A stretch of 36,614 bases of DNA from a virus. Below, piece by piece: positions 2,381 through 22,179 of the stretch. The notes beneath the pieces are model-generated. The model worked only from the letters and a program-made list of their open reading frames with translations. It was not told where the DNA came from and made no database searches. Positions within the stretch are counted from its first letter, which is position 1. Each line of letters opens with the position of its first letter. The position numbers and the translations under genes were made by a program. Where the stretch lies: IMG/VR virus record IMGVR_UViG_3300042804_000010; one strand, given 5' to 3'.

Positions 2381-2610
2381 CAAATCACCTCTGGCAAATA
2401 TGTAATATAAACCGGCTGGGCTGGCCGGCAGCAGTATATTATAAAAGAGGTATCCAACAGACGCCCACAACGATTTCTGTAATTATTAGTTTTTGGCATA
2501 GAAAAACCCAGCTCGTCTGGTAACAAGCCGGGCAAAACAATAAAGGAGGAAAGTTATTGAAAAAACTTATACTTTCCATGATATTAATATATCATCTTTT
2601 AAAGCCTTAA

Positions 2611-2640
2611 ATGTTTACTAATTGTTTACTAACTGTTTAT
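2611..2640. repeat. Tandem 11-bp repeat (tgtttactaaN x about 2.7)
   Basis: atgtttactaa ttgtttactaa ctgtttat read directly at 2611-2640, abutting the stop of the 2637..3113 gene. Confidence 0.6.
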
Positions 2641-3113
2641 TTTTTTGCATATCCGAGAATTCTTGCTATTTTCTCTATTGCCTGGTCCTTAAAATCATAA
2701 TATTTGTTTCTTCCCCACTCGAATTTTGGGTGAGTATATATGTTCACATCTTTCTCGAATCTTCCTGTCATATACTTTTTTTCCACTACAAATCTTTCTA
2801 TCGTGTCTAGCGCCTTTAGAGCTTCTTCAATTTTTGCTATCATGCACTCTTTACTTCTTAATTCTTCTTTGAGTTCACTTTCATCTCGATTAATTACTGC
2901 ATTTTCTGTAGCTGATCTAAAATCATTGCTGCCTTTAACGTTTACTCCTTCATAACTTACCCCTCGATTTGACTCAATTAATTCGTCTAATTCTATTCTG
3001 ATTACGGCACATCGCTGTTTATATTCTTTGTAGTTAAGCAGCTCCTTAATTACTCTTGAATAATAATCCTGCATCCAATCACCCTTTTTGTTGAAATAGT
3101 TTAGCGAACTCAT
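2637..3113 (-). CDS. Hypothetical protein; position suggests a late-gene transcriptional activator (ArpU/RinA-like), unverified
   Basis: 158-aa ORF, last gene of the early block immediately upstream of the Zn-ribbon/HNH/terS/terL packaging block; assignment is positional only. Confidence 0.3.
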   Translation of the reverse strand: MSSLNYFNKKGDWMQDYYSRVIKELLNYKEYKQRCAVIRIELDELIESNRGVSYEGVNVKGSNDFRSATENAVINRDESELKEELRSKECMIAKIEEALKALDTIERFVVEKKYMTGRFEKDVNIYTHPKFEWGRNKYYDFKDQAIEKIARILGYAKK

Positions 3114-3321: not shown

Positions 3322-3566
3322 TCACCCCTGTTAGTCCTCATTTTAATATCGGTACCTTTGTGTCTTTCCAGCCAATCAGCTTCCTCTTCCCTCAGAAGCT
3401 CATTAATTGGTTTCTCTCTTCCGCATCTAATGCAAGTGCCTTTATTCTTAACACTATCTAATATCATTGTCCTCCGGTTGCAGTGAGGGCAAATAACCGG
3501 CACTTGAATATGGGTTTTAATTCCTTGATATTCACATATCTTTCTGGCTTCGTCAAGCATACTCAA
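3312..3566 (-). CDS. Small zinc-ribbon protein
   Basis: 84-aa ORF with two Cys pairs, ...VICPHCNRR...GTCIRCGRE... Confidence 0.5.
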   Translation of the reverse strand: MSMLDEARKICEYQGIKTHIQVPVICPHCNRRTMILDSVKNKGTCIRCGREKPINELLREEEADWLERHKGTDIKMRTNRGDCG

Positions 3567-4011
3567 CCACCTCTAAATTATCTTCTAATATCCAATAATG
3601 TTCCATGCTATCTAATTTATAATGGATGTAATTGTTGGTAGCAGAGTTTGATAAGCGCCTTTTTATTATTTTCCCTGTTTTCCCTTTGAAGTGACCATCT
3701 TTTATTATTTTCACTTTATCTTCTAAGCTATATTGAAATGTATTTTCTTCAAGATTTTTTTTAGCAAACAATAAAGAAGCCTGCAAAAAGTAAAACTTTT
3801 CAGATGGTCTGCCTCTATGGATTGTTTCAATTTCATTAATAATTCTATCTAATTGCTTTAAGCAAGTTTTTTTAGTCATTATTTCTTTTAAAACCATTTT
3901 AGTTTCTTTAGATATTTTCATTTCCTTAGTTTCATCTAAAAGCTTATCAATCATATTTTCTTGAAATTCTTTCCCGGTCCCCGGGCCAGCACCTTTATTT
4001 CTATCGCCCAT
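3553..4011 (-). CDS. Hypothetical protein
   Basis: Track ORF 3553..4020 begins at TTG abutting AGGAG; ATG at 4011 lies 9 nt after AGGAG and is the more plausible start. Confidence 0.45.
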   Translation of the reverse strand: MGDRNKGAGPGTGKEFQENMIDKLLDETKEMKISKETKMVLKEIMTKKTCLKQLDRIINEIETIHRGRPSEKFYFLQASLLFAKKNLEENTFQYSLEDKVKIIKDGHFKGKTGKIIKRRLSNSATNNYIHYKLDSMEHYWILEDNLEVVEYA

Positions 4012-4315
4012 TAACTTCAACTCCTATTTTTATAGTATTTTCATTTTTAAACTTACCATTGATTTCTTCTAAAAGCTGATTAATTTTCTCTAATTTGCTT
4101 TCAATTTGAACCAGTTCGGTCATAGCTTCTGAAGTATCAGCATTCACTCTGACAACTAAATTACTAATTGGCTTGCTATTATAGTCTTCCGCAACCAACC
4201 TGTCCTGCAGTTCATCAATTCCCTCCTCCAAAAATGATTTGCCAGTTTTATGACTCATTTTTGCCGATTCTTCCAGCAGTTCCTCTAAAAAACATAACAT
4301 TTCGCTTCTATTCAT
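4001..4315 (-). CDS. Hypothetical protein (104 aa, acidic, helical)
   Basis: ORF with RBS-like AAAGGGG upstream of ATG 4315. Confidence 0.45.
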   Translation of the reverse strand: MNRSEMLCFLEELLEESAKMSHKTGKSFLEEGIDELQDRLVAEDYNSKPISNLVVRVNADTSEAMTELVQIESKLEKINQLLEEINGKFKNENTIKIGVEVNGR

Positions 4316-4368
4316 TATAATTAACCCCTTTCTTTTTCTAATTACCGGGCCAGCGCCCTAAATTTCTT

Positions 4369-4764
4369 CTATTCTAATTTTTCAAGCCACTCAATTGCAT
4401 CATCAGCTCCGAAAGCAATTTTAGTTTGCCAGTTTCTCCATTCTAAAGCTTTTAACCATTCTTTTTGCGATTCTCTAACATCTGACGGTTTTCCATTAGC
4501 TTTTTTTAATTCGATTGCTATTCCACTAAAGTTCATAGTATATTCAGAAGTTGGATCATCAAATATCAGTACATCAGGCACGCCCGGCTTAACTCCCTGC
4601 ATTTTCATTTTCCTGCCGGTCTTAGCATCTCTGTTTCCTCCATTAGGTACATGGCACCACAAATAGCCTTTCATATCCAAATAATTTGCTAACTTAACTT
4701 GCTCATCATATTCTGATAGATCCTTCTTTTTTCTATATTCTGCAGCACTCATTCTCTCTGTCAT
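4369..4764 (-). CDS. VRR-NUC domain nuclease (PD-(D/E)xK superfamily)
   Basis: 131-aa ORF with LANYLDMKGYLWCHVPNGG...PGVPDVLIFD...GIAIELKK...QKEWLKAL, the VRR-NUC pattern; RBS GAGGTGA. Confidence 0.65.
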   Translation of the reverse strand: MTERMSAAEYRKKKDLSEYDEQVKLANYLDMKGYLWCHVPNGGNRDAKTGRKMKMQGVKPGVPDVLIFDDPTSEYTMNFSGIAIELKKANGKPSDVRESQKEWLKALEWRNWQTKIAFGADDAIEWLEKLE

Positions 4765-4789
4765 TATTTCACCTCAAATTACCGGGCCA

Positions 4790-5623
4790 TCACGGATAAA
4801 CAATAGCCTCGACATGATATTTTTTCTTAAATGATTTCCAGCCCATCTGATGAGCTTTATTGTGATATTCAGCTGATAAACATATTTTCTTTAGATTGCT
4901 ATCATCTAACTTTTGTCTGTTTTGCCCCATTCCTATTGCATCAGCATGATGAATATGAACTATTTCACCTGAATTGTCTATATAATAGTTTTTGCCTGGC
5001 TTAGTACTGACAGCACATATTTTCTTATCCAGGCACATTCTTAGCCATCTATCCAGACTGTCTAATCTCTTCCTGGGGTTTTCTTTCCACTCTACTCCCA
5101 GCTCATAACCTAGCCTTATCGCAAAATCTATAAAATCAATTGCTGCTTTCTTAGAACAATCGGATAAACTTATTCTTCCATGCTCAGAGACCTCAGCAAA
5201 CCTCATAACCAGAGCCTCTTTCATTTCTTCCTTTTCATACCCTATTGAGTTACCCATATCTTCAATGACAGCAAATGCTTTATTTCTCTGACTGTTAGTT
5301 ATCATATTCATTAACCTTTGCTGCTCTTTTTTATTTATTTCAAACTTTACTCTGATTTCTTCCATCTCTTTGAATTTTGGTCCAACATTAATCAAAATCC
5401 TTTTACTGTCTTTCCCAGTTATCAATATAACTTCATGATCTCCATTAGCCAACTGTTCTATATTTTTGATTTTAGCTGAGGCCAGGGCCATCTGATTGAA
5501 GTTCACAATTAATGGTTTATCTTCAAATTTATCAAATCCATCTGGTATATCTTTTATGATCAGGCTTACTACTCCTGAGTTTTTTCTAGTCTTCCATTTT
5601 TTTAAGCTGCATCTAAATATCAT
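4790..5623 (-). CDS. Hypothetical early protein with C-terminal His-rich (HNH-like?) motif
   Basis: Track ORF 4790..5644; ATG at 5623 is preceded by GAAGGAGG; C-terminus has IVHIHHADAIG...EYHNKAH. Function unresolved. Confidence 0.45.
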   Translation of the reverse strand: MIFRCSLKKWKTRKNSGVVSLIIKDIPDGFDKFEDKPLIVNFNQMALASAKIKNIEQLANGDHEVILITGKDSKRILINVGPKFKEMEEIRVKFEINKKEQQRLMNMITNSQRNKAFAVIEDMGNSIGYEKEEMKEALVMRFAEVSEHGRISLSDCSKKAAIDFIDFAIRLGYELGVEWKENPRKRLDSLDRWLRMCLDKKICAVSTKPGKNYYIDNSGEIVHIHHADAIGMGQNRQKLDDSNLKKICLSAEYHNKAHQMGWKSFKKKYHVEAIVYP

Positions 5624-5777
5624 TTCTGCCTCCTTCAACATCAAAATTAAATTTTACTTCATCATCTTTATTTTCTACAAATACATAGATATGATTTGTA
5701 TATTCACAAATACAACAACCTTCTTCTGGATCACAATATGGATTTGGGCAAGGTATTCTTTTCTTGATTTTGCTCAT
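5613..5777 (-). CDS. Small Cys-rich protein (54 aa), not in ORF track
   Basis: Manual translation MSKIKKRIPCPNPYCDPEEGCCICEYTNH...; RBS AGAGGGTGA upstream of ATG 5777; stop overlaps the start of the next gene. Confidence 0.45.
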   Translation of the reverse strand: MSKIKKRIPCPNPYCDPEEGCCICEYTNHIYVFVENKDDEVKFNFDVEGGRNDI

Positions 5778-5881
5778 TTAATTTTCACCCTCTAATATAT
5801 CGCTCTCTGTTTAATAAGACCTCAGTTCAAGACCGGCCGGGGGAAGATCTTAAGTTCTTAAGGTCTTAGCTTCCAGTTAGC

Positions 5882-6037
5882 TTAAAATTTCTTTTCAGGC
5901 TGGCCCGCTCGTTGGGCAAACCAACTCATGTCTTTTTCCATACTTCCAGTTTGCTGTCTTTCGTAACATCTACGGCAGACACCTCCTCTACCATCTTCTT
6001 CTGCATACATTGTTTCGCATTCAGGGCATTCTTTCAT
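5882..6037 (-). CDS. Small zinc-ribbon protein (51 aa), not in ORF track
   Basis: Manual translation MKECPECETMYAEEDGRGGVCRRCYERQQ...; RBS AAAGGAG 7 nt upstream of ATG 6037. Confidence 0.5.
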   Translation of the reverse strand: MKECPECETMYAEEDGRGGVCRRCYERQQTGSMEKDMSWFAQRAGQPEKKF

Positions 6038-6067
6038 TTCTTTGCTCCTTTCTGCTGGCCCGGGCCA

Positions 6068-6328
6068 TCACCCTTGATTAAGGCCAGTTAGTCTCTCAAT
6101 TATTTTTATTCCATCTTTCGGATCTATATAGTCTTTACATCCTTCGCAGTTAACATCATCAAATCTTTCTACTTTTTTGTCGCACCACTCAACTGCAGCT
6201 GTCCCAAGTTCTTTATGATAATACCAGGCACATGGCCGGTTAGTTATTGAGCTGTGATAGTGGCAAAGCGTTCCTTTTCTGATTTGTTCCTCACATCCAT
6301 CTATCTCGCAAATATAATAATCTTTCAT
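6068..6328 (-). CDS. Cys/His-rich putative zinc-binding protein
   Basis: Track ORF 6068..6439; RBS GAAAGGAGG precedes internal ATG at 6328; product MKDYYICEIDGCEE...LCHYH...NCEGCKDY. Confidence 0.5.
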   Translation of the reverse strand: MKDYYICEIDGCEEQIRKGTLCHYHSSITNRPCAWYYHKELGTAAVEWCDKKVERFDDVNCEGCKDYIDPKDGIKIIERLTGLNQG

Positions 6329-6592
6329 CTGCCTCCTTTCTGGAAAATTGGAGCAATGTCTAGTTGGAGCCCACTCAACTGTTAGAATTAGAGAAAGTAA
6401 ACATTTTTTATTGCTCCAATCCTCCAATGCCGGGCACAAAAATTCTTAAACTTTTTCTGGTATATAGATTATTTTTAGCTGGCCCGGTCGATCATGCTCT
6501 ATTGTTGTCGGTGACCTCATTTTGATTCCGTCTATGATAAGTATTCCAAACTTTTTTCTGATTACTTTTGAGTTCATTCCAACACCTTCTAT

Positions 6593-6832
6593 TTAATTCG
6601 GATTTTTTAAATCCCAAAGAGATACAAAACCTACCTCTTCTGGCCTAACAGTTGTAAATCTAGCAGCTTCACATTCTTTTTTATCTATTCTTTTCGCATA
6701 CTTAATTTTTGCTTTATAGGAATTTCCAGCTTTTACTATTCCCATAGAATATATTACTGGTTTTTCACCGGCTCTTTTTTGATAATCTAGCACTATATAT
6801 ATTGGTTTTGGGTTTTGCTTAGAACGGAACAT
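6593..6832 (-). CDS. Hypothetical protein
   Basis: Track ORF 6593..6871 overlaps the SSB 3' end; ATG at 6832 lies 9 nt after GAGGGGG. Confidence 0.4.
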   Translation of the reverse strand: MFRSKQNPKPIYIVLDYQKRAGEKPVIYSMGIVKAGNSYKAKIKYAKRIDKKECEAARFTTVRPEEVGFVSLWDLKNPN

Positions 6833-7340
6833 CGAAATCATCCCCCTCAAAGTTATCGTTATACTGTTCATTTACTTGCCGGCCGTTGTTTTTGCTATTA
6901 GATTGCTGGCTATTATTCTTAGAGTGCTGGCCGTTAGAATGCTGGCCCGGTCCCTGGGTTTTACTTTGCTGCTTATTCCCTTTAGCTTGTGAATTATTTC
7001 TCTGATTGTTATTGTTTGCAAAGTCTAAGAATCGGACATTATCTGCATTTACTTCCGGATTAATATAAGTTCTATTGTTATTTTCACTCTTTCTAATCTG
7101 CATGCTGCCATCTACTCCGACAAGCCTTCCTTTACCAAGATGCCTGGCGCAATTTTCTGCCAGACCCCTCCAGGTGACTATGTTAATGAAATCTACATCT
7201 CTATCACCATTGCCATTAGTATAATTTCTTTCTACTGCCAGTGTGAAGTTACAGACTGGGGTTCCATTGCTGGTATATCTAAGTTCAGGATCTTTGGTTA
7301 AGCGGCCTATTAATACAATTCTATTTAATATTTTCACCAT
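6819..7340 (-). CDS. ssb: Single-stranded DNA-binding protein
   Basis: N-terminal OB-fold pattern NRIVLIGRLTKDPELRYTSNGTPVCNFTLAV...IVTWRGLAEN; Q/N/S-rich linker; acidic C-terminal tail DDFDVPF. Confidence 0.85.
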   Translation of the reverse strand: MVKILNRIVLIGRLTKDPELRYTSNGTPVCNFTLAVERNYTNGNGDRDVDFINIVTWRGLAENCARHLGKGRLVGVDGSMQIRKSENNNRTYINPEVNADNVRFLDFANNNNQRNNSQAKGNKQQSKTQGPGQHSNGQHSKNNSQQSNSKNNGRQVNEQYNDNFEGDDFDVPF

Positions 7341-7674
7341 CTCCTTTTTCTCTAATTTCCTTAACTCTTTCCAACCTATCCTCTGCTATCTCAACTGCTT
7401 TTTCGTGAGATTTTGATTGAGCTATTTTTTCTAAACCAGCTAACATAATATCGTGAATTATATTATCTTTAGAAAATTCTTTTGGCTGATATTCTTCATC
7501 ATCATATAAAATTTTATCCATATAATTTGCCATCGTTAACCCTCTCCTTTTTCTTCTCGCAATTTTAGATTTTTCGAAAATATTCATATTTTTTTCTATT
7601 TCTTCTTGAGGCTCTGGCTCGCACCACTGGGTATCATCCTGCATATACAAAAGCATTTCTATATACTTACCCAT
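7321..7674 (-). CDS. Hypothetical protein (117 aa)
   Basis: ORF in early gene array; no recognisable motif. Confidence 0.4.
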   Translation of the reverse strand: MGKYIEMLLYMQDDTQWCEPEPQEEIEKNMNIFEKSKIARRKRRGLTMANYMDKILYDDEEYQPKEFSKDNIIHDIMLAGLEKIAQSKSHEKAVEIAEDRLERVKEIREKGDGENIK

Positions 7675-7879
7675 CTTGATTGCTGCCTTCGGCTTTATTA
7701 ATTGCTAACCTCAATTTTCTTTCCCATTCATGTTTCTTACATGTAAATCCATTGTAAGGATCACACTCACACTCAAGATTTTTAACTATTTTCAAACTAT
7801 ATTTTGCAACATCTAGCAATTCGTCTCGCTGTTTTTTAATTTCTATTTTCTCTAATGCTAAATCACTGCTTGATTTCAT
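7667..7879 (-). CDS. Hypothetical small protein (70 aa)
   Basis: ORF in early array; contains ECECDPYNGFTCKKHEW. Confidence 0.4.
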   Translation of the reverse strand: MKSSSDLALEKIEIKKQRDELLDVAKYSLKIVKNLECECDPYNGFTCKKHEWERKLRLAINKAEGSNQDG

Positions 7880-8145
7880 TGTTCGTCAGCTCCTTTAGCT
7901 TTGTTCATCGCTTCCAAAATTCGATTCATAACCTCACCAATTTCATCTTGGCTTCTAGCATCCCAACTTGATAAACCAGCAAGTGTATCTATCATTTCGT
8001 AGCTTTGTTTGAGTGCCTCCAACAACTCAGGTGCAGCTGCCATCAGTTGAGCTTTCTTTTTCTTTTCGCCGTAAGTTATATCATCAGCAACAAAACATTT
8101 GATAACTTCTTCCTTTTCGTCAATAACTTCTATGATTTTAAACAT
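7876..8145 (-). CDS. Hypothetical protein (89 aa)
   Basis: ORF in early array, overlapping neighbours by one codon. Confidence 0.4.
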   Translation of the reverse strand: MFKIIEVIDEKEEVIKCFVADDITYGEKKKKAQLMAAAPELLEALKQSYEMIDTLAGLSSWDARSQDEIGEVMNRILEAMNKAKGADEQ

Positions 8146-8189
8146 CGAGCGTTCAAATTATCTTAGTTTCCACCTCATGATTTACTCTC

Positions 8190-8450
8190 CTATCTCGCCC
8201 CGCAGATTCCCGACTCGCAATCCGGATCTACTTCTCTATCAAATCCACCGTCGAGACCAACTTTATTTGCTTCCGTTTCAGACTCATTATTTGACTTTTC
8301 CCGGCTTTCTAATATTTTTTCTGGAACCATTTCTTTTTCGCCGCACTCCTGGCAAATTAGAATTTTGTAATCAGAATAACTTGTTAATTCAGTTTCTTTA
8401 ATTCGGTGATCAGTTTCTTTTCGACAACTTTTGCACTCTTTATTAATCAT
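8190..8450 (-). CDS. Small zinc-ribbon protein
   Basis: Track ORF 8190..8507; AGGAGG lies 6 nt upstream of internal ATG 8450; product MINKECKSCRKETDH...ICQECGEKE. Confidence 0.5.
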   Translation of the reverse strand: MINKECKSCRKETDHRIKETELTSYSDYKILICQECGEKEMVPEKILESREKSNNESETEANKVGLDGGFDREVDPDCESGICGAR

Positions 8451-8516
8451 ATTTACCTCCTGCCTATTTTTGTAAACCTCGCTATAAACCAAATTATAAA
8501 TATCCAAAATACAATT

Positions 8517-8639
8517 CTACTGTTCATCTTCTTCCTCTTGCAACTTTCTGTACTTCTCCTCGACAATTTCATCAATTACTGATTCCGGTAGTCCTGGATG
8601 CTCTTTTCTAAGTTTTTCTTTGATGTGATCAAGATTCAT
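8517..8639 (-). CDS. Small acidic protein (40 aa), not in ORF track
   Basis: Manual translation MNLDHIKEKLRKEHPGLPESVIDEIVEEKYRKLQEEEDEQ; strong RBS AAGGAGG 5 nt upstream of ATG 8639. Confidence 0.45.
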   Translation of the reverse strand: MNLDHIKEKLRKEHPGLPESVIDEIVEEKYRKLQEEEDEQ

Positions 8640-8649
8640 GTCGCCCTCC

Positions 8650-8850
8650 TTAGCCGATTTTGTTAATCCACTCAATATTAGTGATTACTAATTTGCTTTT
8701 TTTATTCAATTTTTCTTCTAATTCATCTTCTAATCTCCGCCTTCGCGCTGGAGTTATTCTTTTGGAAGTGCTTATAAGCACGTTTCCTGTATCCTCAACT
8801 GTTTTATAGTGAATTCTATATCTGAAAAAATTTTGTTTTTTAATTTTCAT
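8650..8850 (-). CDS. Hypothetical small basic protein (66 aa)
   Basis: ORF in early array; Arg-rich segment PARRRRLEDE. Confidence 0.4.
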   Translation of the reverse strand: MKIKKQNFFRYRIHYKTVEDTGNVLISTSKRITPARRRRLEDELEEKLNKKSKLVITNIEWINKIG

Positions 8851-8865
8851 CTGTCCCTCCTAACT

Positions 8866-9198
8866 TTAACCAGTATTCCTTTGATTTTTCCAATATTCCC
8901 AGTGATCACAATCCTCCAGTTCAATTTTACAGTTATCTTTTTCTTTGCAGTGACCGCAGAAGTTATCTTCAAGCTTTTTTAGCATTCTTTCTTTCGCGCT
9001 AATTCTTTCAATGCCGAGATATTTGCTTTTGAATTCTGACCATTTCATTCTTTTAATGATAAACCCTATACTCGGTCCGCCAAACTTTTTCTTATATCGC
9101 TTATAGGACCTATAAGTCAAATCTTTTTCTCCACTCCATTTGACTGCAGCCTTTGCAGTTTTTATCGCGTCCTTCATAGACCAAGCCATTTTAAGCAC
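8866..9198 (-). CDS. Hypothetical protein with C-terminal Cys/His cluster
   Basis: 110-aa ORF; C-terminus FCGHCKEKDNCKIELEDCDHWEYW. Confidence 0.4.
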   Translation of the reverse strand: MLKMAWSMKDAIKTAKAAVKWSGEKDLTYRSYKRYKKKFGGPSIGFIIKRMKWSEFKSKYLGIERISAKERMLKKLEDNFCGHCKEKDNCKIELEDCDHWEYWKNQRNTG

Positions 9199-9412
9199 CT
9201 CTCACTTTAATTTCCAGCCTGATTTCTTTGAAACTTTCACTAAGGTCTATCTCAAAGTTTGTATAATTAGAACTTTCTAAAGCTCGCTCAATGACCGGGC
9301 CAGCAAGTTTAATCCTTTTTCCTTCATTTTCCCGCTTTACGCTTTTAATCAAATCTGCCATATCGTCTTTGGTTACCTGATCAACATTTCCAGTTACTAT
9401 TATTGGTTTCAT
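9191..9412 (-). CDS. Hypothetical protein (73 aa)
   Basis: ORF in early array. Confidence 0.4.
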   Translation of the reverse strand: MKPIIVTGNVDQVTKDDMADLIKSVKRENEGKRIKLAGPVIERALESSNYTNFEIDLSESFKEIRLEIKVRGA

Positions 9413-9416
9413 TTCC

Positions 9417-10160
9417 TCACTCCTTAAATCTATCCCAGTCTTCTATGAAATGGTCTTTCCACTTATAGTCGCAATTATCAGGACTGTCTTTGTTTTTAGC
9501 ATTTTTAGCAGCTGTCTTAAGATCGTCAATATCTTCAATGCCTTTTTGGGTCCAATCGTTCAATACTGCTCGACAATATGCCAGGGGTTTATCTTTTTCG
9601 ACTGAAATCTTGCAGGCTTTCAAAATTACTGCCTCTGACATTTGCTGCAGGTAGTTTTCGAACTTATCCACATTTTCTTCAAAGAAAATTTTGAATTTCT
9701 TTTTCTTATTTTCATTATTTTTCATTATTAAATCATTATTAACATTATTGTTTGTGTGTTTTTGATGTGTTTTTGATGTGTTTTGGTTATGCTTTTGATA
9801 TGTTTTTGCGTCGTTTTTACAATTATCTAAACCTTGATAATCGCTATAATTTAGCACCTTAACGACCGTCTTTTTAGTGTCGCTTTTATAACTTATCATT
9901 TCTTGATTGGTCAAAAGTTTTAGAAAGTTTTTAACTTTTGTATTTGACCAACCCCAGCGATCACAAAGTTTTCTAATTGAAGTTATCATTTCCCCTGGCT
10001 CGACCTTTACAACTTCATTCCCCAGCAGAACTTCATTTTCTTTATGATTAACCGAAAGCAGTATATCTATCCAAGCTTGACCTTTCGCAAAAGGTTTATC
10101 CTGCCAGAGAATATTATTCTGCATTTTTCTATGAAGAGAAATCCATCCTTGAGCTCCCAC
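9417..10160 (-). CDS. Replication protein (phage replisome organiser / DnaD-like)
   Basis: N-terminus GWISLHRKMQNNILWQDKPFAKGQAWIDILL...; C-terminus ...AYCRAVLNDWTQKGIEDIDDL resembles a DnaD-type domain; central low-complexity linker is encoded by the iteron-like repeats. Confidence 0.55.
   Translation of the reverse strand: MGAQGWISLHRKMQNNILWQDKPFAKGQAWIDILLSVNHKENEVLLGNEVVKVEPGEMITSIRKLCDRWGWSNTKVKNFLKLLTNQEMISYKSDTKKTVVKVLNYSDYQGLDNCKNDAKTYQKHNQNTSKTHQKHTNNNVNNDLIMKNNENKKKKFKIFFEENVDKFENYLQQMSEAVILKACKISVEKDKPLAYCRAVLNDWTQKGIEDIDDLKTAAKNAKNKDSPDNCDYKWKDHFIEDWDRFKE
9756..9820. repeat. Iteron-like tandem repeats (about 6 copies of an 11-bp unit gtgtttttgat), candidate origin
   Basis: Two perfect tandem copies at 9756-9766 and 9767-9777, followed by degenerate copies gtgttttggtt, atgcttttgat, atgtttttgcg, tcgtttttac; lies inside the linker of the replication gene. 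Confidence 0.55.
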
Positions 10161-10164
10161 CTAA

Positions 10165-10701
10165 TCAACCCCTTGTGTCACCTTCTAAAGCATTTAGCAA
10201 ATCTTTAAGTTCTTTGTTTAATTCAAACCGATCAGGTCTAACTGGCATAACTAAGCCAACCAGATTTCCGTTGTCAGAATAAATTGCGACAATAGAAATT
10301 TCACTCTTGATTTTTAATTGATAACCTTCAAAAATTTGATAATAATTATCTTGCATTACACCAACGCAATTGTTGGTATAATAAAGTCTATATTCATCAT
10401 CAAATATAAACTTAGATGCTTTTGCCGGTTCAAAACTATCTAGTTTTTCAAATAATTCTCCGATATCCGGGCCATCTCCACTCAAAGTCATTCCATAGGT
10501 GGAGCACTTATCTCCAACTTCTAAATCTGGTATATAGGCATTTCTTTTTAATGAAGAATATTTACTCTTGAATCTATTAAACTGATTTTGATTCATCCTA
10601 ATTAAAAAATACGTATTAGTTACCCAATAAGTGTTTTCTTCTTCCCGCCAACAATGAACATTATCTTTCTTTAACTCCTTAATTGCTTTTTTAATTTTCA
10701 T
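10165..10701 (-). CDS. Hypothetical protein (178 aa)
   Basis: ORF in early array downstream of the replication gene. Confidence 0.45.
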   Translation of the reverse strand: MKIKKAIKELKKDNVHCWREEENTYWVTNTYFLIRMNQNQFNRFKSKYSSLKRNAYIPDLEVGDKCSTYGMTLSGDGPDIGELFEKLDSFEPAKASKFIFDDEYRLYYTNNCVGVMQDNYYQIFEGYQLKIKSEISIVAIYSDNGNLVGLVMPVRPDRFELNKELKDLLNALEGDTRG

Positions 10702-11065
10702 TAGGCCTTTCCTCCTCTAATAGTTTTGATTTTCTCAACCTCAGATTACTAAATTTAATCTTTTCTTTCTCCAGTATTTCATTTGCCCGCCAGAATGGAT
10801 TATCGTCACTTCTGAAAAAGAAATACATTGTCTGACCTAATTCCTTATCAAAATAAATGGCCTCGTAAAGTTCCATATTTGCCTCTTTCTCGTCAATCTT
10901 CTTTTCGATAGCCTTTTGTACCTTAATCTCAATCGTCTGCTCGTTTGATACGAGATTATCCAAATATTCGTCGGCTGTTAAGACAGTTCCGACCGCAATT
11001 CCAATAGAAAAGACCATGATGAAAAAACTGAATGCTATTTTTTTGTTAATTGTCATCATTTCCAT
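10691..11065 (-). CDS. Membrane-anchored hypothetical protein
   Basis: N-terminal hydrophobic segment IAFSFFIMVFSIGIAVGTVL followed by a charged domain. Confidence 0.45.
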   Translation of the reverse strand: MEMMTINKKIAFSFFIMVFSIGIAVGTVLTADEYLDNLVSNEQTIEIKVQKAIEKKIDEKEANMELYEAIYFDKELGQTMYFFFRSDDNPFWRANEILEKEKIKFSNLRLRKSKLLEEERPNEN

Positions 11066-11265
11066 CGCTCCAGGTTGTTAATGTTTTTAAATTCTGATAT
11101 ATTATAGTTAGATGTTTTTTCTTGATCAGCTGTTCCTGCAGCTGGTCTTTTTATTTCTCTATACATTTCTTTGATATCCTTCCATAATTCCGGGCCAGCT
11201 TTAAATATAATGAATAACCAGCCAATGAACATGAATAATCTTGCTATAAAGTCTAAGTTTTGCAT
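11056..11265 (-). CDS. Small membrane protein (69 aa)
   Basis: N-terminal hydrophobic helix FIARLFMFIGWLFIIF. Confidence 0.4.
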   Translation of the reverse strand: MQNLDFIARLFMFIGWLFIIFKAGPELWKDIKEMYREIKRPAAGTADQEKTSNYNISEFKNINNLERWK

Positions 11266-12369: not shown

Positions 12370-12582
12370 TTAGCTGTACTCTATTTCTAAAAAAAGACGA
12401 CTGATCGGAATTTGCAACTCATCAGAAACTTTCCTGAGCGTTTCAATAGATGGGTTACTATCTCCTCTTTCTATCGCTGCTATAGTTGAATGTGCTAACC
12501 CTATCCGGCGTGCCAACTCTCGCTGGCTCCATTCTAAATCTTCTCTATATTTTTTTATAGCCAGCCCGATGTGTTTATCCAT
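12370..12582 (-). CDS. Cro-like XRE-family HTH regulator
   Basis: 70-aa ORF ...WSQRELARRIGLAHSTIAAIERGDSNPSIETLRKV...; divergent from the cI-like gene. Confidence 0.75.
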   Translation of the reverse strand: MDKHIGLAIKKYREDLEWSQRELARRIGLAHSTIAAIERGDSNPSIETLRKVSDELQIPISRLFLEIEYS

Positions 12583-12650
12583 TTTATCACCTCCAAAAAT
12601 CTCGGAATAATCTCTAAAAATTCTCGAAAAATAGCTCTAACTTGTTTATC

Positions 12651-12679
12651 ATTGTATTTTATAACTGCACAAAAATCAA
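12651..12679 (-). promoter_or_regulatory. Candidate leftward early promoter (TTGATT-17-TACAAT on minus strand)
   Basis: Plus-strand aatcaa at 12674-12679 and attgta at 12651-12656 are the reverse complements of the -35 and -10 boxes, 17 bp apart, upstream of the cro-like gene. Confidence 0.45.
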
Positions 12680-12773
12680 GCAAAATATTTCCTTTCTAAA
12701 GCATTTAAGACTTATCAGATTAAATTAACTAATTATTATTAACTTATACTGCTTTATACTCGTACACTCATAC

Positions 12774-12802
12774 TTTACAAAATAATACATTAATATTATA
12801 AT
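12774..12802 (+). promoter_or_regulatory. Candidate repressor promoter (TTTACA-17-TATAAT)
   Basis: -35 at 12774-12779, -10 at 12797-12802, 17-bp spacer; about 45 bp upstream of the cI-like ATG (12846), which is preceded by RBS AAAGGGGGGA. Confidence 0.5.
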
Positions 12803-12845
12803 ATAAGTGTACAGTATTTAAAACACAAAAAAAGGGGGGATTTAG

Positions 12846-13490
12846 ATGACATTAGGTGAAAAGATTAGAGAACTAAGGACAAAAAAGGGCTATTCTCTTC
12901 GAAAATTGTCGAAAATAGTTGGTTCTGCTTCTCACTCCTATATTGCCGCTATAGAACGTGGCGAAAATAACCCATCATTAAACATATTGTCAGATATCGC
13001 AAATGTTCTTGGAGTATCAACAGCTTATTTATTGGACATTTATGATAAAGAAAAGTCTGGAAATGAAAAGTTTAAGATTGATGAACATTCAGGGGAGATT
13101 TCAAAAGAGGAGATGATTAGTGTGCCGATTGTCGGAGATGTAGCAGCAGGTGAACCAATACTCGCAGACGAACATATAGAAGGATATAGACAAATGCCCG
13201 CAAAAGACATCAATGGGGAATGTTTTTTGCTCAAAATTAAAGGCGATAGCATGATCAATGCAGGGATTCATGAAAACGATTTGGTATTAATCAGACAGCA
13301 GGCAAAAGTTGAGACCGGAGATATTGCAGCTGTAATGATTGATAATGAAAATGCGACATTAAAAAGAGTTTATTTTCATGACAATTCAGTTTTGCTGCAG
13401 TCTGAAAACTTGAAATATAAGCCGATGAATATTAATAATGAAAGAGTTAAAATTATTGGTAAAGCAATAGAAGTTATTCACAAACTATAA
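12846..13490 (+). CDS. CI-like repressor (N-terminal XRE HTH plus C-terminal S24/LexA-like peptidase domain)
   Basis: N-terminus LRKLSKIVGSASHSYIAAIERGENNPSLNIL; C-terminus ...PIVGDVAAGEPILA...KGDSMINAGI...KRVY with Ser/Lys dyad spacing typical of autocleaving repressors. Confidence 0.8.
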   Translation: MTLGEKIRELRTKKGYSLRKLSKIVGSASHSYIAAIERGENNPSLNILSDIANVLGVSTAYLLDIYDKEKSGNEKFKIDEHSGEISKEEMISVPIVGDVAAGEPILADEHIEGYRQMPAKDINGECFLLKIKGDSMINAGIHENDLVLIRQQAKVETGDIAAVMIDNENATLKRVYFHDNSVLLQSENLKYKPMNINNERVKIIGKAIEVIHKL

Positions 13491-14476: not shown

Positions 14477-15622
14477 ATGCCTCATATTGAAAAAACTGCA
14501 AATGGAAAGTATAAAGCTGTCATTGAAGTTGGCGCCGGCGCCAGGCGAAAAAGAAGAACAAAAACATTCGAAAGAAAAAAAGATGCAAAAAGCTGGCAAG
14601 CTAATATGTTAGTTGATCAAGAAAAAGGCAGATATGTTTCTTCCGCATCATTAACTGTCGGTGATCATATGCTTGACTGGCTGGATAACGAGAAGAAACC
14701 GCACATCGCCACAACTACTTATGATAATTACAAAAACCGTATAAAAACTTATATTATACCCGAAATAGGATATATTCCATTGCAGGAACTGGAGCCCTTC
14801 CATATTAGCCGATTTATGGGCTATTTAAGAAAGAATGGAAGTGTCAGGAATGATGGCGGCCTGTCTGAAAATACTCTCAAGAAAATATATGTAGTGCTTA
14901 ATTCAGCGATGGAAAAGGCAGTCCAGTGGCGGTTAATAAAATATAACCCAGTCCAGGCGATTGAATCACCACAACCGAAAAAGAAAGAAGCTAAGTCAAT
15001 GAGCTTTGAGGAAGTTCAAAAATTACTTGATTCAGTTAACGATAAATTTATGCACACATTTTTGAGTTTTGCTGTCCTTACCGGAATGAGAAAAAGTGAA
15101 ATGCTTGGCCTAGAGTGGTCAGAAGTTGATTTAGAGAATGAAACTGTCGAAGTAAAAAAGCGATTAGTTGTTAATCAAAATAGTGATCAGGGAATTGAGC
15201 ATGAAGAAGCGACAAAGCGAGAAGCCAGCAGAAGAGTGATTGCGATTCCTTCGAAACTGGCAAAAATATTGAAAAATTATAAGGTCCATCAAACAGAATT
15301 AAGGCTGCAGCTGGCGGATGAATATAATGATGAAAAGCAATTTGTTTTCTGTAAGTCTGACGGGAATCCTTATTATCCGTCAACAATTACTAGAAATGCA
15401 AAAAAGGCCATACTCAGAGCTGATTTAAGCTCCGAATACAGCCTTCATACATTGCGCCATACATTCGCTACCTTGCAACTTAAAACCGGGACAGATGCCA
15501 AAACTATACAAGAAATGCTCGGTCATGGGAATATCTCCACTACTATGGATATATACTCTCATGTTGATATTGACATGCAGAAAGAAGCCGCAAAGAAATT
15601 AGAAAATGAGATTGTTATTTAG
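14477..15622 (+). CDS. int: Tyrosine integrase (site-specific recombinase)
   Basis: C-terminal catalytic pattern ...HTLRHTFATLQL...LGHGNISTTMDIYSHV (R...HxxR...Y) and N-terminal SAM-like domain. Confidence 0.85.
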   Translation: MPHIEKTANGKYKAVIEVGAGARRKRRTKTFERKKDAKSWQANMLVDQEKGRYVSSASLTVGDHMLDWLDNEKKPHIATTTYDNYKNRIKTYIIPEIGYIPLQELEPFHISRFMGYLRKNGSVRNDGGLSENTLKKIYVVLNSAMEKAVQWRLIKYNPVQAIESPQPKKKEAKSMSFEEVQKLLDSVNDKFMHTFLSFAVLTGMRKSEMLGLEWSEVDLENETVEVKKRLVVNQNSDQGIEHEEATKREASRRVIAIPSKLAKILKNYKVHQTELRLQLADEYNDEKQFVFCKSDGNPYYPSTITRNAKKAILRADLSSEYSLHTLRHTFATLQLKTGTDAKTIQEMLGHGNISTTMDIYSHVDIDMQKEAAKKLENEIVI

Positions 15623-16837: not shown

Positions 16838-16887
16838 TGGTGCGCCCGACAGGATTCGAACCTGTGGCCTACGGATTAGAAGTCCGT
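16838..16887 (-). other. 3' half of a tRNA-Arg(UCU)-like sequence (anticodon arm, variable loop, T-arm, acceptor 3' strand, CCA); candidate attP core
   Basis: Minus-strand read ACGGA-CTTCTAA-TCCGT AGGCC ACAGG-TTCGAAT-CCTGT CGGGCGC A CCA; the upstream 5' part has only weak acceptor complementarity (GCGCAAG) and no D-arm, so it is not a complete tRNA. Confidence 0.6.
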
Positions 16888-16939
16888 AAGAGGTGAAATC
16901 TTGCGCTTTCTTATGTTTTCTTTTGTTGCGACATTTAGT

Positions 16940-19332: not shown

Positions 19333-19586
19333 ATTTTTGACTGTCTTAGGAATAAATAATCACCACTCTCTATATATTAGGTGAAATATTCAAGCCCGCT
19401 CAAATGAGAACGGGCTCATAACTAATCGTGACAGCTTTCGATATTTCGCTACTTGCTATCTAATTAGTAATTCATATGTTTTCCTGGAGGGACCTCAAAA
19501 TGTATCTCAGGAAGGACTAAAGGCCTGTTCATCTTTTTGAACACTGCAGCAGAGGCCTTGACCCCATACTGTCTGATAAATTTGTA

Positions 19587-19703
19587 GATGAGCACAGGCG
19601 CCACGCACGCCAATGTTAGTGTTCACGTTCCACGGGTTATTGTTCGAGTTGACCGTCCGAGCACCGCAGATGCTACCATTGTTGAAGTTGCCACCGGCGA
19701 GGA
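19587..19703 (-). repeat. DGR template repeat (TR), 117 bp
   Basis: 102 of 117 positions identical to VR (20143-20259); all 15 differences are at TR adenines on the coding strand; carries 11 AAY codons in the VR frame. Confidence 0.9.
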
Positions 19704-19727
19704 CCAACGCCCTTAGCCCTATAAAAT

Positions 19728-20081: not shown

Positions 20082-20131
20082 ATCATCACTCCTTCAAGTT
20101 CTAAACCTAACCAAAAACCATTATCAGATTA

Positions 20132-21477: not shown

Positions 21478-22179
21478 TTATCTAACCTCCATTGCTAATG
21501 AGCCGTCAATCATTTTTAGCTCGTAAATATCGCCTGTTGTCTCATCTATCAAGTTGTTTTCTGGATTTGAGCCGTCCGGGCCAGCCTTCACAAGCCCATA
21601 TTCGACTTTCTGAATTGTTGCATCTATCACTGTATCAAACAGCACTATAGTTGTTTCATCATTGACTCCATCATAATTTGCTGATTCTACAGCTGAATAA
21701 ACTGAGCTTGCGTCTAGAGTTGCTTTGATTTTTCTATTAGTGACGAATGTATCTATATAGTCACCAGGCACTGTAAAAGTATCAGCGCTTACATAAGTTG
21801 CAGTTAATGCGCTGTCAATCCATTCAGTCATATTTTCAGCAAGGTCAGATTTGATAGTTCCGTCTTCATTAAGAGCAACTTCTAGCCGCTCCCAGAGAGT
21901 GTTTTTTGTTCCTCTCGAAACTCTTAAATCCTTAATATAAGGATTATATTCATTCTGCAGCACCCACTCAGACCCATTCCAAAACTTCATTTTTGCATTT
22001 GCCCAACCTTCCGAAATGTCTAACCAGGGCATCCCTTGATAAGTATCAGTTGGCGCTGTTTCTCCTGCAAATTGAGTAACAATAGCTAAAAAGTTGCCAT
22101 ATAAAACTTGTTTAAGGCCGGGACCATTAGCGTCAAGCCCCTCTTTATTTGTCGTTCTTATATCAAAATCTTGAGACAT
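21478..22179 (-). CDS. Hypothetical tail fibre/baseplate-associated protein (233 aa)
   Basis: ORF immediately downstream of the J-like gene; structural role inferred from position only. Confidence 0.45.
   Translation of the reverse strand: MSQDFDIRTTNKEGLDANGPGLKQVLYGNFLAIVTQFAGETAPTDTYQGMPWLDISEGWANAKMKFWNGSEWVLQNEYNPYIKDLRVSRGTKNTLWERLEVALNEDGTIKSDLAENMTEWIDSALTATYVSADTFTVPGDYIDTFVTNRKIKATLDASSVYSAVESANYDGVNDETTIVLFDTVIDATIQKVEYGLVKAGPDGSNPENNLIDETTGDIYELKMIDGSLAMEVR

What the first reader, a model, noticed from the sequence alone, without database searches (positions are those of the whole stretch)
4341..6494. Recurrent GC-rich CCGGGCC(A) motif in intergenic gaps of the early operon
attaccgggccagc (4341-4354), attaccgggccatc (4778-4791), gctggcccgggccatcac (6053-6070, with the perfect 12-bp palindrome tggcccgggcca) and agctggcccggtcgatc (6477-6493) each lie 20-60 nt upstream of an early-gene start in an AT-rich background. 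Further copies inside coding regions (3981, 9297, 10470, 11190, 21575) encode Ala-Gly-Pro and may be coincidental.
Basis: seen in the sequence. Interest (0 to 1): 0.45.

Follow-up and report, generated by a model that had tools for sequence, protein, structure and literature searches.

The report
Phage-specific TGGCCCGG site at gene junctions
A GC-rich ten-letter word (G[C/A]TGGCCCGG) is scattered about 100 times more often than chance through the early genes of this Halanaerobium phage and its distant cousins but not through the host chromosome, and it often marks the spots where small genes have been swapped in and out, so it is most likely a recognition site for a phage protein whose function has still to be tested.

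Summary
The unit is a 10-mer, G[C/A]TGGCCCGG, with core TGGCCCGG. It has 11 copies in 36.6 kb against 0.13 expected, and 10 of them lie in 7.2 kb of the minus-strand early operon. The coding copies are not coincidental: all four Ala-Gly-Pro tripeptides use GCT-GGC-CCG.

Three phage lineages whose DNA no longer aligns carry the same core at 9-16 copies per 20 kb. The copies sit at mostly different positions and in different reading frames. Four Halanaerobium chromosome samples (82 kb) hold only two 8-mers, and other Halanaerobium phages hold 0-2.

About 40% of sites lie 10-36 nt upstream of a start codon, in either orientation, and some form TGGCCCGGGCCA palindromes. No shared RNA fold, promoter or terminator is present. 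Several gene insertions and replacements are bounded by the motif.

Best reading (confidence about 0.35): a DNA site for a phage-encoded protein that also acts as a cassette-exchange junction. The leading candidate is the co-inherited NinB/Orf-like HNH nuclease (4790-5629). This assignment is inference.

The closest known kinds are start-associated sequences, stoperators and PeSLs. The motif meets the defining features of none of them.

The parts
3981..3990 (-). GCTGGCCCGG, sense copy inside gene 3553-4011 (codons 8-10, Ala-Gly-Pro), 10 nt after the stop of gene 4001-4315
   Evidence: Conserved in L021 and L061, where flanks are 89-91% identical.
4345..4354 (-). GCTGGCCCGG, intergenic. It lies 14 nt after the VRR-NUC stop and 29 nt before the start at 4315.
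   Evidence: It is a junction of gene replacements in L021, L061, L165 and L203.
4782..4791 (-). GATGGCCCGG, intergenic. It overlaps the TGA stop of the HNHc_6 gene and lies 17 nt before the VRR-NUC start at 4764.
   Evidence: The same intergenic position carries the motif in the L180 family, whose flanks are unrelated. It is the site of the 79-codon gene insertion in L002.
6054..6069 (.). Overlapping sense and antisense copies, GCTGGCCCGGGCCATC, containing the palindrome TGGCCCGGGCCA. The pair overlaps the TGA stop of the Cys-rich gene and lies 16-22 nt before the start at 6037.
   Evidence: It is the insertion point of a 144-codon gene in L165/L132 and a 117-codon gene in L203, each flanked by repeats of this sequence.
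6478..6487 (+). GCTGGCCCGG, antisense copy, in a 43-codon ORF (6446-6577) or in non-coding DNA
   Evidence: Kept in L002 and L203. Degenerated (6/10) in L021, whose locus shows no HNHc_6 gene.
6941..6950 (+). GCTGGCCCGG, antisense copy in the low-complexity C-terminal tail of the SSB gene (Pro-Gly-Gln).
9295..9304 (-). GCTGGCCCGG, sense copy in gene 9191-9412 (Ala-Gly-Pro)
   Evidence: Intact in relatives whose flanks are 88% identical. In L180 and L182 the Ala-Gly-Pro is kept but with other codons.
10467..10476 (-). GATGGCCCGG, sense copy in gene 10165-10701 (Asp-Gly-Pro)
   Evidence: The variant GGTGGCCCGG occurs in L002.
11190..11199 (-). GCTGGCCCGG, sense copy in gene 11056-11265 (Ala-Gly-Pro)
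21576..21585 (-). GCTGGCCCGG, the only copy in the late (tail) region, in gene 21478-22179 (Ala-Gly-Pro)
5899..5908 (+). GCTGGCCCGC, a one-mismatch antisense copy at the end of the 51-codon gene 5882-6037
5483..5492 (-). GATGGCCCTG, a two-mismatch copy inside the HNHc_6 gene. The exact GATGGCCCGG is at this position in the L001 and L165 allele.
4790..5629 (-). Candidate cognate protein: long-form HNHc_6 nuclease, with an N-terminal beta-barrel, a lambda NinB/Orf-like domain and an HNH domain
6068..6328 (-). Second candidate: Cys-rich 86-residue protein of unknown fold, next to the palindromic site
   Evidence: At least 67% identical in all motif-rich lineages and at most 44% identical or absent in motif-poor ones. 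No family match. The structure model failed, pLDDT 47.

Best explanation
TGGCCCGG, usually extended to G[C/A]TGGCCCGG, is a lineage-specific DNA recognition site. It is kept by selection in the early (replication and recombination) module of a clade of temperate Halanaerobium phages.

It is most likely bound, and perhaps nicked or cut, by a phage-encoded protein of that module. The best candidate is the NinB/Orf-like HNH nuclease encoded at 4790-5629.

Sites accumulate where they cost least. That means between cistrons, just after the stop codon and 5' of the next Shine-Dalgarno sequence, or in tolerant codon frames. There they serve as crossover points at which small gene cassettes are inserted, replaced and exchanged between related phages.

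Shown:
- extreme over-representation
- nucleotide-level conservation in diverged lineages
- absence from the host chromosome samples
- placement at cistron junctions in both orientations
- cassette indels bounded by the motif

Inferred:
- that a protein binds the site
- which protein it is
- that breaks at the site drive the exchanges
For: 1. Statistics. There are 11 copies against 0.39 (7-mer, shuffles) or 0.125 (8-mer), and 8 exact 10-mers against 0.004.

2. The selection acts on nucleotides, not on protein.
- All 4 Ala-Gly-Pro use GCT-GGC-CCG.
- The L180 family embeds the core mostly as Leu/Met-Ala-Arg.
- In relatives, the core is 93.8% identical against 87.5% for flanks, P = 6e-4.

3. Lineage specificity.
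- The window family, L203 and the L180 family share only 36-91% protein identity in about 8 genes, and their DNA does not align.
- All three have 9-16 copies per 20 kb.
- About 175 kb of other Halanaerobium phages has 5 copies.
- 82 kb from four Halanaerobium chromosomes has 2 eight-mers and no 10-mer. One of these samples comes from the same sequencing run as phage L203.

4. It acts as DNA rather than RNA.
- Both orientations occur at translation starts, and palindromic doublets are frequent.
- There is no common fold.

5. Link to the nuclease.
- Long-form HNHc_6 is the only gene present in every motif-rich group and absent from motif-poor ones.
- Sites cluster within about 3 kb of it: 8 in the window, 9 of 16 in L197 and 7 of 9 in L203.
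- Its fold contains a lambda NinB/Orf-like recombination domain. PMC5714182 predicts this family to be an Orf DNA-binding domain fused to a His-Me nuclease domain.
- Phages with short forms lacking the N-terminal barrel show no such motif.

6. Cassettes.
- Insertions in L002 (79 codons), L165 (144 codons) and L203 (117 codons) are flanked by 19-25 nt direct repeats containing the motif.
- The VRR-NUC gene is replaced between two motif copies in L165, L061 and L186.
- The L203 117-codon gene is 84-86% identical to an L180-family gene that sits elsewhere in the genome, and it is motif-flanked in both. The homology ends inside the motif.
Against: - No binding or cleavage has been shown.
- The link to the nuclease rests on two or three lineages that also share ancestry.
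- A 52%-identical long-form homologue (L215, 3.3 kb) has no TGGCCCGG at all.
- The Cys-rich protein (6068-6328) correlates almost as well.
- Homology breakpoints lie near the motif only modestly more often than chance: 8 of 51 against 3.7 expected, P = 0.03. This may simply reflect that both prefer gene boundaries.
- Many mosaic junctions have no motif.
- A nuclease that cuts its own genome at more than 10 sites needs a rationale.
Confidence: 0.35

Rival explanations
1. The sites are operators for a phage-encoded DNA-binding regulator that is not the immunity repressor. Bound at cistron junctions, it would shut off or tune the early operon, for example as a transcriptional roadblock at late times. 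Cassette swapping at the sites would be a by-product of having the same short sequence at many junctions, as with PeSLs.
For: - Sites are confined to the early module, with 10 of 11 in 3981-11199.
- They are enriched about 4-fold just upstream of starts.
- Both orientations and palindromes fit a double-stranded DNA binder.
- Density peaks near a cluster of small uncharacterised, Cys-rich proteins.
- In T4-type phages, regulatory repeats are known to mediate shuffling (PMC2839356).
Against: - No DNA-binding domain was found in the conserved small proteins.
- No promoter-like sequence accompanies the sites.
- More than half of the sites are inside coding sequence.
- No copy lies in the cI-cro control region.
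- The repeats flanking insertions are only 13-25 nt, short for ordinary homologous recombination.
Confidence: 0.25
2. The motif is an RNA-level signal in the polycistronic early mRNA. It would be a binding or cleavage site for a protein or small RNA that controls translation or processing of the downstream cistron, comparable to the start-associated sequences of Cluster K mycobacteriophages.
For: - 19 of 28 non-palindromic sites are in the sense strand.
- Many sit 3-9 nt 5' of a Shine-Dalgarno sequence.
- Like start-associated sequences, they are restricted to non-structural genes and absent from the host (PMC3203893).
Against: - Antisense-only copies occupy the same position in front of Shine-Dalgarno sequences (L203 9180 and 9567).
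- Palindromic doublets are frequent.
- There is no shared secondary structure and no Rfam family.
- The motif does not include the Shine-Dalgarno sequence.
- About 60% of copies are deep inside coding sequence.
Confidence: 0.1
3. The motif has no function of its own. It would be a relic of a junction sequence that spread passively with gene cassettes, or by gene conversion, among related phages.
For: Cassettes carry motif copies at their ends. Some flanks are shared beyond the core, for example ttgtttatcc-gt-GATGGCCCGG and GATGGCCCGG-gcaat.
Against: - Copies inside conserved coding genes, in fixed synonymous codons and in different frames in different lineages, cannot be junction relics.
- The core is better conserved than its flanks.
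- It persists in lineages whose DNA no longer aligns.
Confidence: 0.1
4. The motif is a host-factor site, such as a Chi-like sequence for Halanaerobium AddAB. It would protect the early-gene end of the genome, which by analogy with HK97-like cos phages would be the exposed end after injection, and it would stimulate recombination.
For: - It begins GCTGG, like E. coli Chi.
- Most copies share one orientation.
- If cos lies next to the HNH and terS genes (an assumption, not tested here), that orientation would face an exonuclease entering from the early-gene end (inference).
- Recombination junctions lie nearby.
- The phage shows no recognisable annealing recombinase.
Against: - 82 kb of four Halanaerobium chromosomes holds only 2 TGGCCCGG and no 10-mer.
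- Most other Halanaerobium phages from the same samples have none.
- A 10-mer is longer than any known Chi.
- A quarter to a third of sites are antisense or palindromic.
Confidence: 0.05
5. The pattern is a product of chance or codon usage.
For: GGC-CCG-G is mildly over-used for Gly-Pro in the host sample, 2 of 13. This gives a low background of GGCCCGG.
Against: - 0 of 100 shuffles reach the observed count.
- The probability for the 10-mer is about 1e-24.
- The prefix G[C/A]T is constant.
- Intergenic and antisense copies exist.
- The host's own Ala-Gly-Pro uses other codons.
Confidence: 0.01

Closest known systems
Start-associated sequences (SAS/ESAS) of Cluster K mycobacteriophages (Pope et al. 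2011, PMC3203893)
   Same: - Both are short conserved repeats specific to one phage clade.
- Both are restricted to the non-structural half of the genome.
- Both are found upstream of genes of unrelated families.
- In both, the upstream stop codon sometimes lies inside the repeat.
- Both are essentially absent from the host genome.
- The function of both is unknown.
   Different: - An SAS is 13 bp, contains the Shine-Dalgarno sequence, sits 3-7 bp from the start codon and has almost a single orientation.
- Here the core is 8-10 bp and lies 5' of a separate Shine-Dalgarno sequence, 10-36 nt from the start.
- About 60% of copies are inside coding sequence.
- Both orientations and overlapping palindromes occur.
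Stoperators of Cluster A mycobacteriophages (L5 gp71 sites). Described from my own knowledge, and mentioned in PMC3203893.
   Same: Both consist of many dispersed asymmetric sites in short intergenic spaces of a temperate phage, mostly co-oriented with transcription.
   Different: - Stoperators match the immunity repressor's operator and are immunity-specific.
- Here, phages with different repressors share the motif (214-residue LexA-like in the window, 108-110-residue HTH_3 in L001 and L203).
- No copy lies in the cI-cro region.
- Orientation is not strict.
PeSL regulatory cassettes of T4-type phages (Arbiol et al. 2010, PMC2839356; PMC4122927)
   Same: Both are repeated sequences at gene boundaries in plastic, non-essential regions. 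In both, insertions, deletions and replacements of small genes are bounded by the repeats.
   Different: - PeSLs are composite units of a sigma-70 promoter and a stem-loop terminator, long enough for homologous recombination.
- Here there is only an 8-10 bp core, with no promoter and no hairpin.
Chi sites (RecBCD/AddAB). Described from my own knowledge.
   Same: Both are short, polar, over-represented words associated with recombination. This one begins GCTGG, like E. coli Chi.
   Different: It is not enriched in the host chromosome samples. It is specific to one phage clade and is longer than known Chi sequences.
Site-specific single-strand nicks of phages such as T5 and some Pseudomonas phages. 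Described from my own knowledge.
   Same: Those phages also have a dispersed short consensus, mostly on one strand of the genome. Here the possible parallel is the co-occurring HNH-type nuclease.
   Different: No evidence of nicks is available for this phage. This is only a lead.

Membership tests
Chi / host recombination hotspot | Strong over-representation in the host core genome | tested here: not met
   82 kb from H. congolense, H. saccharolyticum, H. praevalens and a Halanaerobium metagenome contig holds 0 ten-mers and 2 TGGCCCGG. Only origin-proximal ssb loci were sampled.
Chi / host recombination hotspot | Recognition by host RecBCD/AddAB, with orientation-dependent activity | not testable with these tools
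   This needs biochemistry or genetics. The orientation bias seen here is only about 2:1 to 3:1.
Stoperators (Cluster A mycobacteriophages) | Sites match the immunity repressor's operator and differ between heteroimmune phages | tested here: not met
   There is no copy in the cI-cro intergenic region 12583-12845. Relatives with unrelated repressors keep the same motif.
Stoperators (Cluster A mycobacteriophages) | Single orientation relative to transcription | tested here: not met
   3 of 11 copies in the window, 4 of 9 in L203 and 5 of 15 in L180 are antisense or palindromic.
Start-associated sequences (Cluster K) | The repeat contains the Shine-Dalgarno sequence and lies 3-7 bp upstream of the start codon | tested here: not met
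   The motif lies 10-36 nt from starts, 5' of a separate GGAGG, and 21 of 35 sites are not start-proximal.
Start-associated sequences (Cluster K) | Clade-specific, restricted to non-structural genes, absent from the host | tested here: met
PeSL regulatory cassettes (T4-type) | Composite of a sigma-70 early promoter and a stem-loop terminator | tested here: not met
   No promoter-like or terminator-like match coincides with the sense-strand sites. There is no shared hairpin.
PeSL regulatory cassettes (T4-type) | Repeats bound the insertions, deletions and replacements of small genes | tested here: met
   The statistical excess over other gene boundaries is weak.
Sigma-54 promoter | GG at -24 and GC at -12 with fixed spacing (TGGCAC-N5-TTGC) | tested here: not met
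   TGGCCC resembles the -24 box, but positions +10 to +15 after the core carry no conserved TTGC.
Integron attC cassettes | Imperfect palindromic attC of 55-140 bp with conserved R/L boxes, plus an IntI integrase | tested here: not met
   Only 8-16 bp is conserved. The only integrase is next to a tRNA-type attP.
Known RNA families | Match to an Rfam covariance model | tested here: not met
   The only match is a tRNA fragment at 16841-16906.

The most novel reading that the evidence does not exclude
These phages carry a self-contained recombination system. A NinB/Orf-like HNH nuclease, with a clade-specific N-terminal barrel, recognises TGGCCCGG and nicks single sites or cuts palindromic doublets placed at cistron junctions. 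The breaks feed recombination-dependent replication. Through repair from co-infecting or resident relatives, they drive exchange of motif-bounded gene cassettes. This would be a phage-encoded Chi-like or integron-like device.
Probability: 0.2. Interest if true: 0.8.

Novelty: new variant of a known kind. Interest (0 to 1): 0.58.

Why it matters
Clade-specific dispersed motifs such as stoperators, start-associated sequences and PeSLs are among the few cis-acting signals that organise phage genomes. The function of several is still unknown.

This one has four useful properties:
- It is unusually clean: a GC-rich 10-mer in a 35% GC genome.
- It is maintained in lineages whose DNA has diverged beyond alignment.
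- It co-inherits with a recombination nuclease of unknown specificity.
- It sits at the ends of exchanged gene cassettes.

If the nuclease link holds, it would give a mechanism for how small accessory genes are shuffled in temperate phages. It would also assign a first sequence specificity to the widespread HNHc_6 (Orf-HNH) family.

The system can be tested. Related proteins (about 90% identity clusters) are recorded in sequenced Halanaerobium saccharolyticum, accessions TDO77708.1 and TDO77720.1, on 37-38 kb contigs. I did not check whether that prophage carries the motif.

Tried and rejected
- A megablast search of the window against known phages found no match.
- The genome-contig scan with the integrase found only an unrelated Bacteroidetes locus, so whole host genomes could not be scanned.
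- A literature search for the motif string returned only unrelated primer and construct hits.
- Scanning viral contigs for the 16-mer palindrome returned mostly high-GC chance hits. The only low-GC hits were this phage family.
- Host-wide motif (Chi or DNA uptake sequence): rejected on 82 kb of host DNA.
- Codon usage: rejected.
- RNA hairpin: a GGGC-GCTG-GCCC mini-hairpin exists at only some sites, and there is no common fold.
- Sigma-54 -24/-12 promoter: rejected.
- Immunity-repressor operator: rejected, because heteroimmune relatives share the motif.
- PHROGs and Pfam gave no function for the small early proteins.
- The structure model of the Cys-rich protein had pLDDT 47 and was unusable. 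Its homologue search gave only 3 clusters.
- An apparent second motif in locus L246 was an 18-bp tandem coding repeat.
- The GCTGGCCA words in L215 lie inside the conserved NIEQLA coding region of the nuclease gene and are not a variant motif.
Full report
**What the window is.**
The 36.6-kb window (35% GC) is a complete or nearly complete temperate siphovirus-type genome.
- The early operon runs on the minus strand from a cro-like gene (12370-12582). It passes through an antirepressor, a DnaD-like protein (9417-10160), SSB (6819-7340), an HNHc_6 nuclease (4790-5629), a VRR-NUC nuclease (4369-4764), a late activator (2637-3113), an HNH protein (1891-2205) and the small terminase (1406-1870).
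- A LexA-like repressor (12846-13490) and an integrase (14477-15622) are on the plus strand.
- Structural genes fill the rest.
- The host is Halanaerobium. The N-terminal domain of the phage SSB is 92-96% identical to the chromosomal SSB of H. congolense, H. saccharolyticum and H. praevalens. Related proteins are recorded in Halanaerobium isolates.
- Many near-identical contigs occur in JGI, ENA and Logan metagenomes.

**Checking the observation.**
- The four quoted sequences are present, one of them off by a base.
- CCGGGCC occurs 11 times against 0.39 in dinucleotide-preserving shuffles, and no shuffle reaches 11.
- Orienting the copies shows a longer unit: GCTGGCCCGG eight times and GATGGCCCGG three times.
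- This is the most over-represented 8-mer (11 against 0.125) and 10-mer (8 against 0.004) in the window.
- Allowing two mismatches gives 20 matches against 5.0. These include near-copies at 5899 and 5483.
- Ten of the 11 copies lie between 3981 and 11199. One lies in a tail gene at 21576.
- Eight are in the sense of transcription. Three (6054, 6478, 6941) are antisense, and one of these overlaps a sense copy to give the palindrome at 6056-6067.
- Three junction sites are intergenic: 4345, 4782 and 6054-6069. At two of them the TGA stop of the upstream gene is part of GATGG. The next start codon follows 16-29 nt later, behind its own Shine-Dalgarno sequence.

**The coding copies are not coincidental.**
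- The window has 20 Gly-Pro dipeptides. The five encoded GGC-CCG are exactly the five motif copies.
- All four Ala-Gly-Pro tripeptides are GCT-GGC-CCG-G. Codon usage (GCT 43%, GGC 23%, CCG 20%) predicts about 2% each.
- In a 20-kb host sample the one Ala-Gly-Pro uses other codons. There is only a weak GGC-CCG-G preference, 2 of 13.
- In a sister lineage the same core sits mostly in another frame, CTG/ATG-GCC-CGG.
- The constraint is therefore on the nucleotide word, which is fitted into tolerant frames.

**Relatives.**
- Close relatives (L001-L016, L061, L091, L132, L165, L186) keep the copies and add new ones in non-homologous genes.
- L203 carries an 80%-identical nuclease. It has 9 copies in 20.8 kb, 7 of them within 2.7 kb around the nuclease gene.
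- A third group is the L180 family: L180-L184, L193-L199, L223-L226. It shares only about eight proteins with the window, at 36-91% identity, and no alignable DNA apart from part of ssb.
- That group nevertheless carries 12-16 copies of NNTGGCCCGG per 14-21 kb, including three palindromic doublets.
- One position is shared across these lineages despite unrelated flanks: the gap between the nuclease gene and VRR-NUC.
- Taking the window's sites as reference, the 10-mer is 93.8% identical in diverged relatives against 87.5% for the flanks, P = 6e-4. The pairs are not independent.

**Where the motif is absent.**
- Four Halanaerobium chromosome samples around ssb total 82 kb. One comes from the same sequencing run as L203. 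Together they contain no 10-mer and two TGGCCCGG.
- About 175 kb of other Halanaerobium phages contains five copies. Several of these phages come from the same metagenomes, and many carry the same host-like SSB.
- Phages with short-form HNHc_6 have no comparably over-represented dispersed word. These include Brochothrix NF5, Hujiaoplasma zrk29-2 and about 40 gut-metagenome prophage loci.
- The one strong signal among them, in L246, is a tandem coding repeat.
- This rules out a host-wide word such as Chi or an uptake sequence at anything like phage density. It points to a phage-clade-specific system.

**What kind of signal it is.**
- No Rfam family matches.
- No promoter-like or terminator-like pattern accompanies the sense copies.
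- Six sites folded as RNA have unrelated structures, with z-scores from -1.76 to +1.06.
- Flanks add little information: a weak T at -8 and -7, and G/C at +10 and +11. There is no conserved -12 GC, as a sigma-54 promoter would need.
- Across the window, L203 and L180, 14 of 35 strand-sites lie within 40 nt upstream of a start codon, where 7-13% would be expected. Five of these 14 are antisense, three of them antisense-only.
- Both orientations at the same functional position, plus frequent overlapping palindromes, argue for recognition of double-stranded DNA rather than of mRNA.
- Relatives with different immunity repressors share the motif: a 214-residue LexA-like protein in the window, and 108-110-residue HTH_3 proteins in L001 and L203.
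- The cI-cro control region has no copy. The immunity repressor is therefore not the binder.

**Candidate partner.**
- A presence/absence matrix of window proteins was built across motif-rich and motif-poor loci.
- Exactly one gene is present in every motif-rich group (57-100% identity) and absent from the motif-poor ones. It is the long-form HNHc_6 nuclease.
- Sites are densest within about 3 kb of it, and in most lineages one lies inside the gene.
- Its model (pLDDT 83.6) has an N-terminal beta-barrel, a helical domain and the HNH module.
- This agrees with the published view of the family as Orf-like DNA-binding domains fused to a His-Me nuclease (PMC5714182), found in ssb-linked recombination modules (PMC8093625).
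- The N-terminal about 105 residues are confined to this Halanaerobium phage clade.
- Three caveats apply:
  - The motif-rich lineages share ancestry.
  - A 52%-identical homologue on a 3.3-kb contig has no motif.
  - The Cys-rich protein next to the palindrome (6068-6328) correlates nearly as well. It could not be characterised.

**Cassette junctions.**
Within the conserved block 7.8-2.4 kb, many indels between relatives have the motif at their ends.
- A 79-codon gene lies between the nuclease gene and VRR-NUC in L002. It is flanked by ttgtttatcc(g/t)tGATGGCCCGG on both sides.
- A 144-codon gene in L165/L132 and a 117-codon gene in L203 are both inserted at the palindromic site. Each is flanked by 19-25 nt repeats that contain the site.
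- VRR-NUC is replaced by an unrelated gene between two motif copies in L165, L061 and L186.
- The next gene is replaced between two copies in L021.
- The L203 117-codon gene is 84-86% identical to an L180-family gene located elsewhere in that genome. It is motif-flanked there too, and the nucleotide homology ends within the motif.
- Statistically, homology breakpoints lie within 40 nt of a motif 8 times out of 51 against 3.7 expected, P = 0.03.
- Because both breakpoints and motifs favour gene boundaries, this excess is weak on its own. Many junctions have no motif.

**Interpretation.**
- The best-supported account is a clade-specific DNA site for a phage-encoded protein of the recombination module. 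The site is tolerated mainly at cistron junctions and acts as the crossover point for cassette exchange. The Orf-like HNH nuclease is the leading candidate (confidence about 0.35).
- Rivals are:
  - a non-immunity regulator's operator (0.25)
  - an RNA-level signal resembling start-associated sequences (0.10)
  - passive junction relics (0.10)
  - a host Chi-like site (0.05)
  - chance (0.01)
- Among known kinds it most resembles start-associated sequences, stoperators and PeSLs. It fails at least one defining feature of each. I class it as a new variant of the known kind 'clade-specific dispersed phage motif'.

Noticed in passing
window 18238-21169 (minus strand): A complete diversity-generating retroelement. 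It comprises a reverse transcriptase (18238-19332), a bAvd accessory protein (19728-20081), a template repeat (19587-19703) and a variable repeat (20143-20259, 87% identical) at the 3' end of an Mtd-like tail gene (20132-21169). Local GC rises to 43%.
   Followed up: partly
window 16841-16906 (minus strand): A tRNA 3' fragment lies about 1.2 kb downstream of the integrase. Rfam scores it 32.5 bits, and ARAGORN finds no full tRNA. It is probably the attP core for integration into a host tRNA gene.
   Followed up: partly
window 6819-7340: The N-terminal OB domain of the phage SSB is 92-96% identical to the chromosomal SSB of several Halanaerobium species, while its tail differs. This points to recent capture of, or recombination with, the host ssb gene. 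Many unrelated Halanaerobium phages carry the same host-like domain.
   Followed up: partly
window 5826-5848; L180 13532-13554; L203 about 9780-9800: A second GC-rich element, TCAAGACCGGCCGGGGGAAG, occurs once per genome in an intergenic gap. It is shared by lineages whose DNA otherwise does not align, and its orientation relative to transcription is opposite in the window and L180. In the window it lies within a predicted hairpin region (110 nt, -26.9 kcal/mol).
   Followed up: partly
window 6341-6426: A 17-nt inverted repeat (TGGAAAATTGGAGCAAT / ATTGCTCCAATCCTCCA, 52-nt loop) lies in about 120 nt of apparently non-coding DNA upstream of the Cys-rich gene. It sits in the middle of the antisense motif cluster. 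A possible origin or RNA element was not examined.
   Followed up: no
window 2411-2533: Two GC-rich terminator-like hairpins on the minus strand (2533-2506 and 2429-2411) lie between the late activator gene and the HNH and terS genes. The second contains GCTGGGCTGGCCGGC, a loose relative of the motif. It could be a terminator or cos-region structure.
   Followed up: no
window 6900-6950: The antisense strand of the SSB tail carries a run of degenerate motif-like words before the exact copy: ttgctggct, gtgctggccg, then gctggcccgg. This suggests the site grew out of a repetitive Gln/Gly/Pro-coding tract.
   Followed up: no
whole window and host loci L036, L162: CTGCAG, CAGCTG and GCAGCTGC are 6- to 7-fold (window hexamers) or more over composition-based expectation in the phage, its relatives and the host. 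This is probably a codon or dipeptide effect. It is not explained.
   Followed up: no
L017 9755-9840: A relative lacking the HNHc_6 gene keeps an 86-nt remnant of its 3' end (89.5% identical), followed by that locus's only motif copy and a different small gene. This is evidence of deletion or recombination at this junction.
   Followed up: yes
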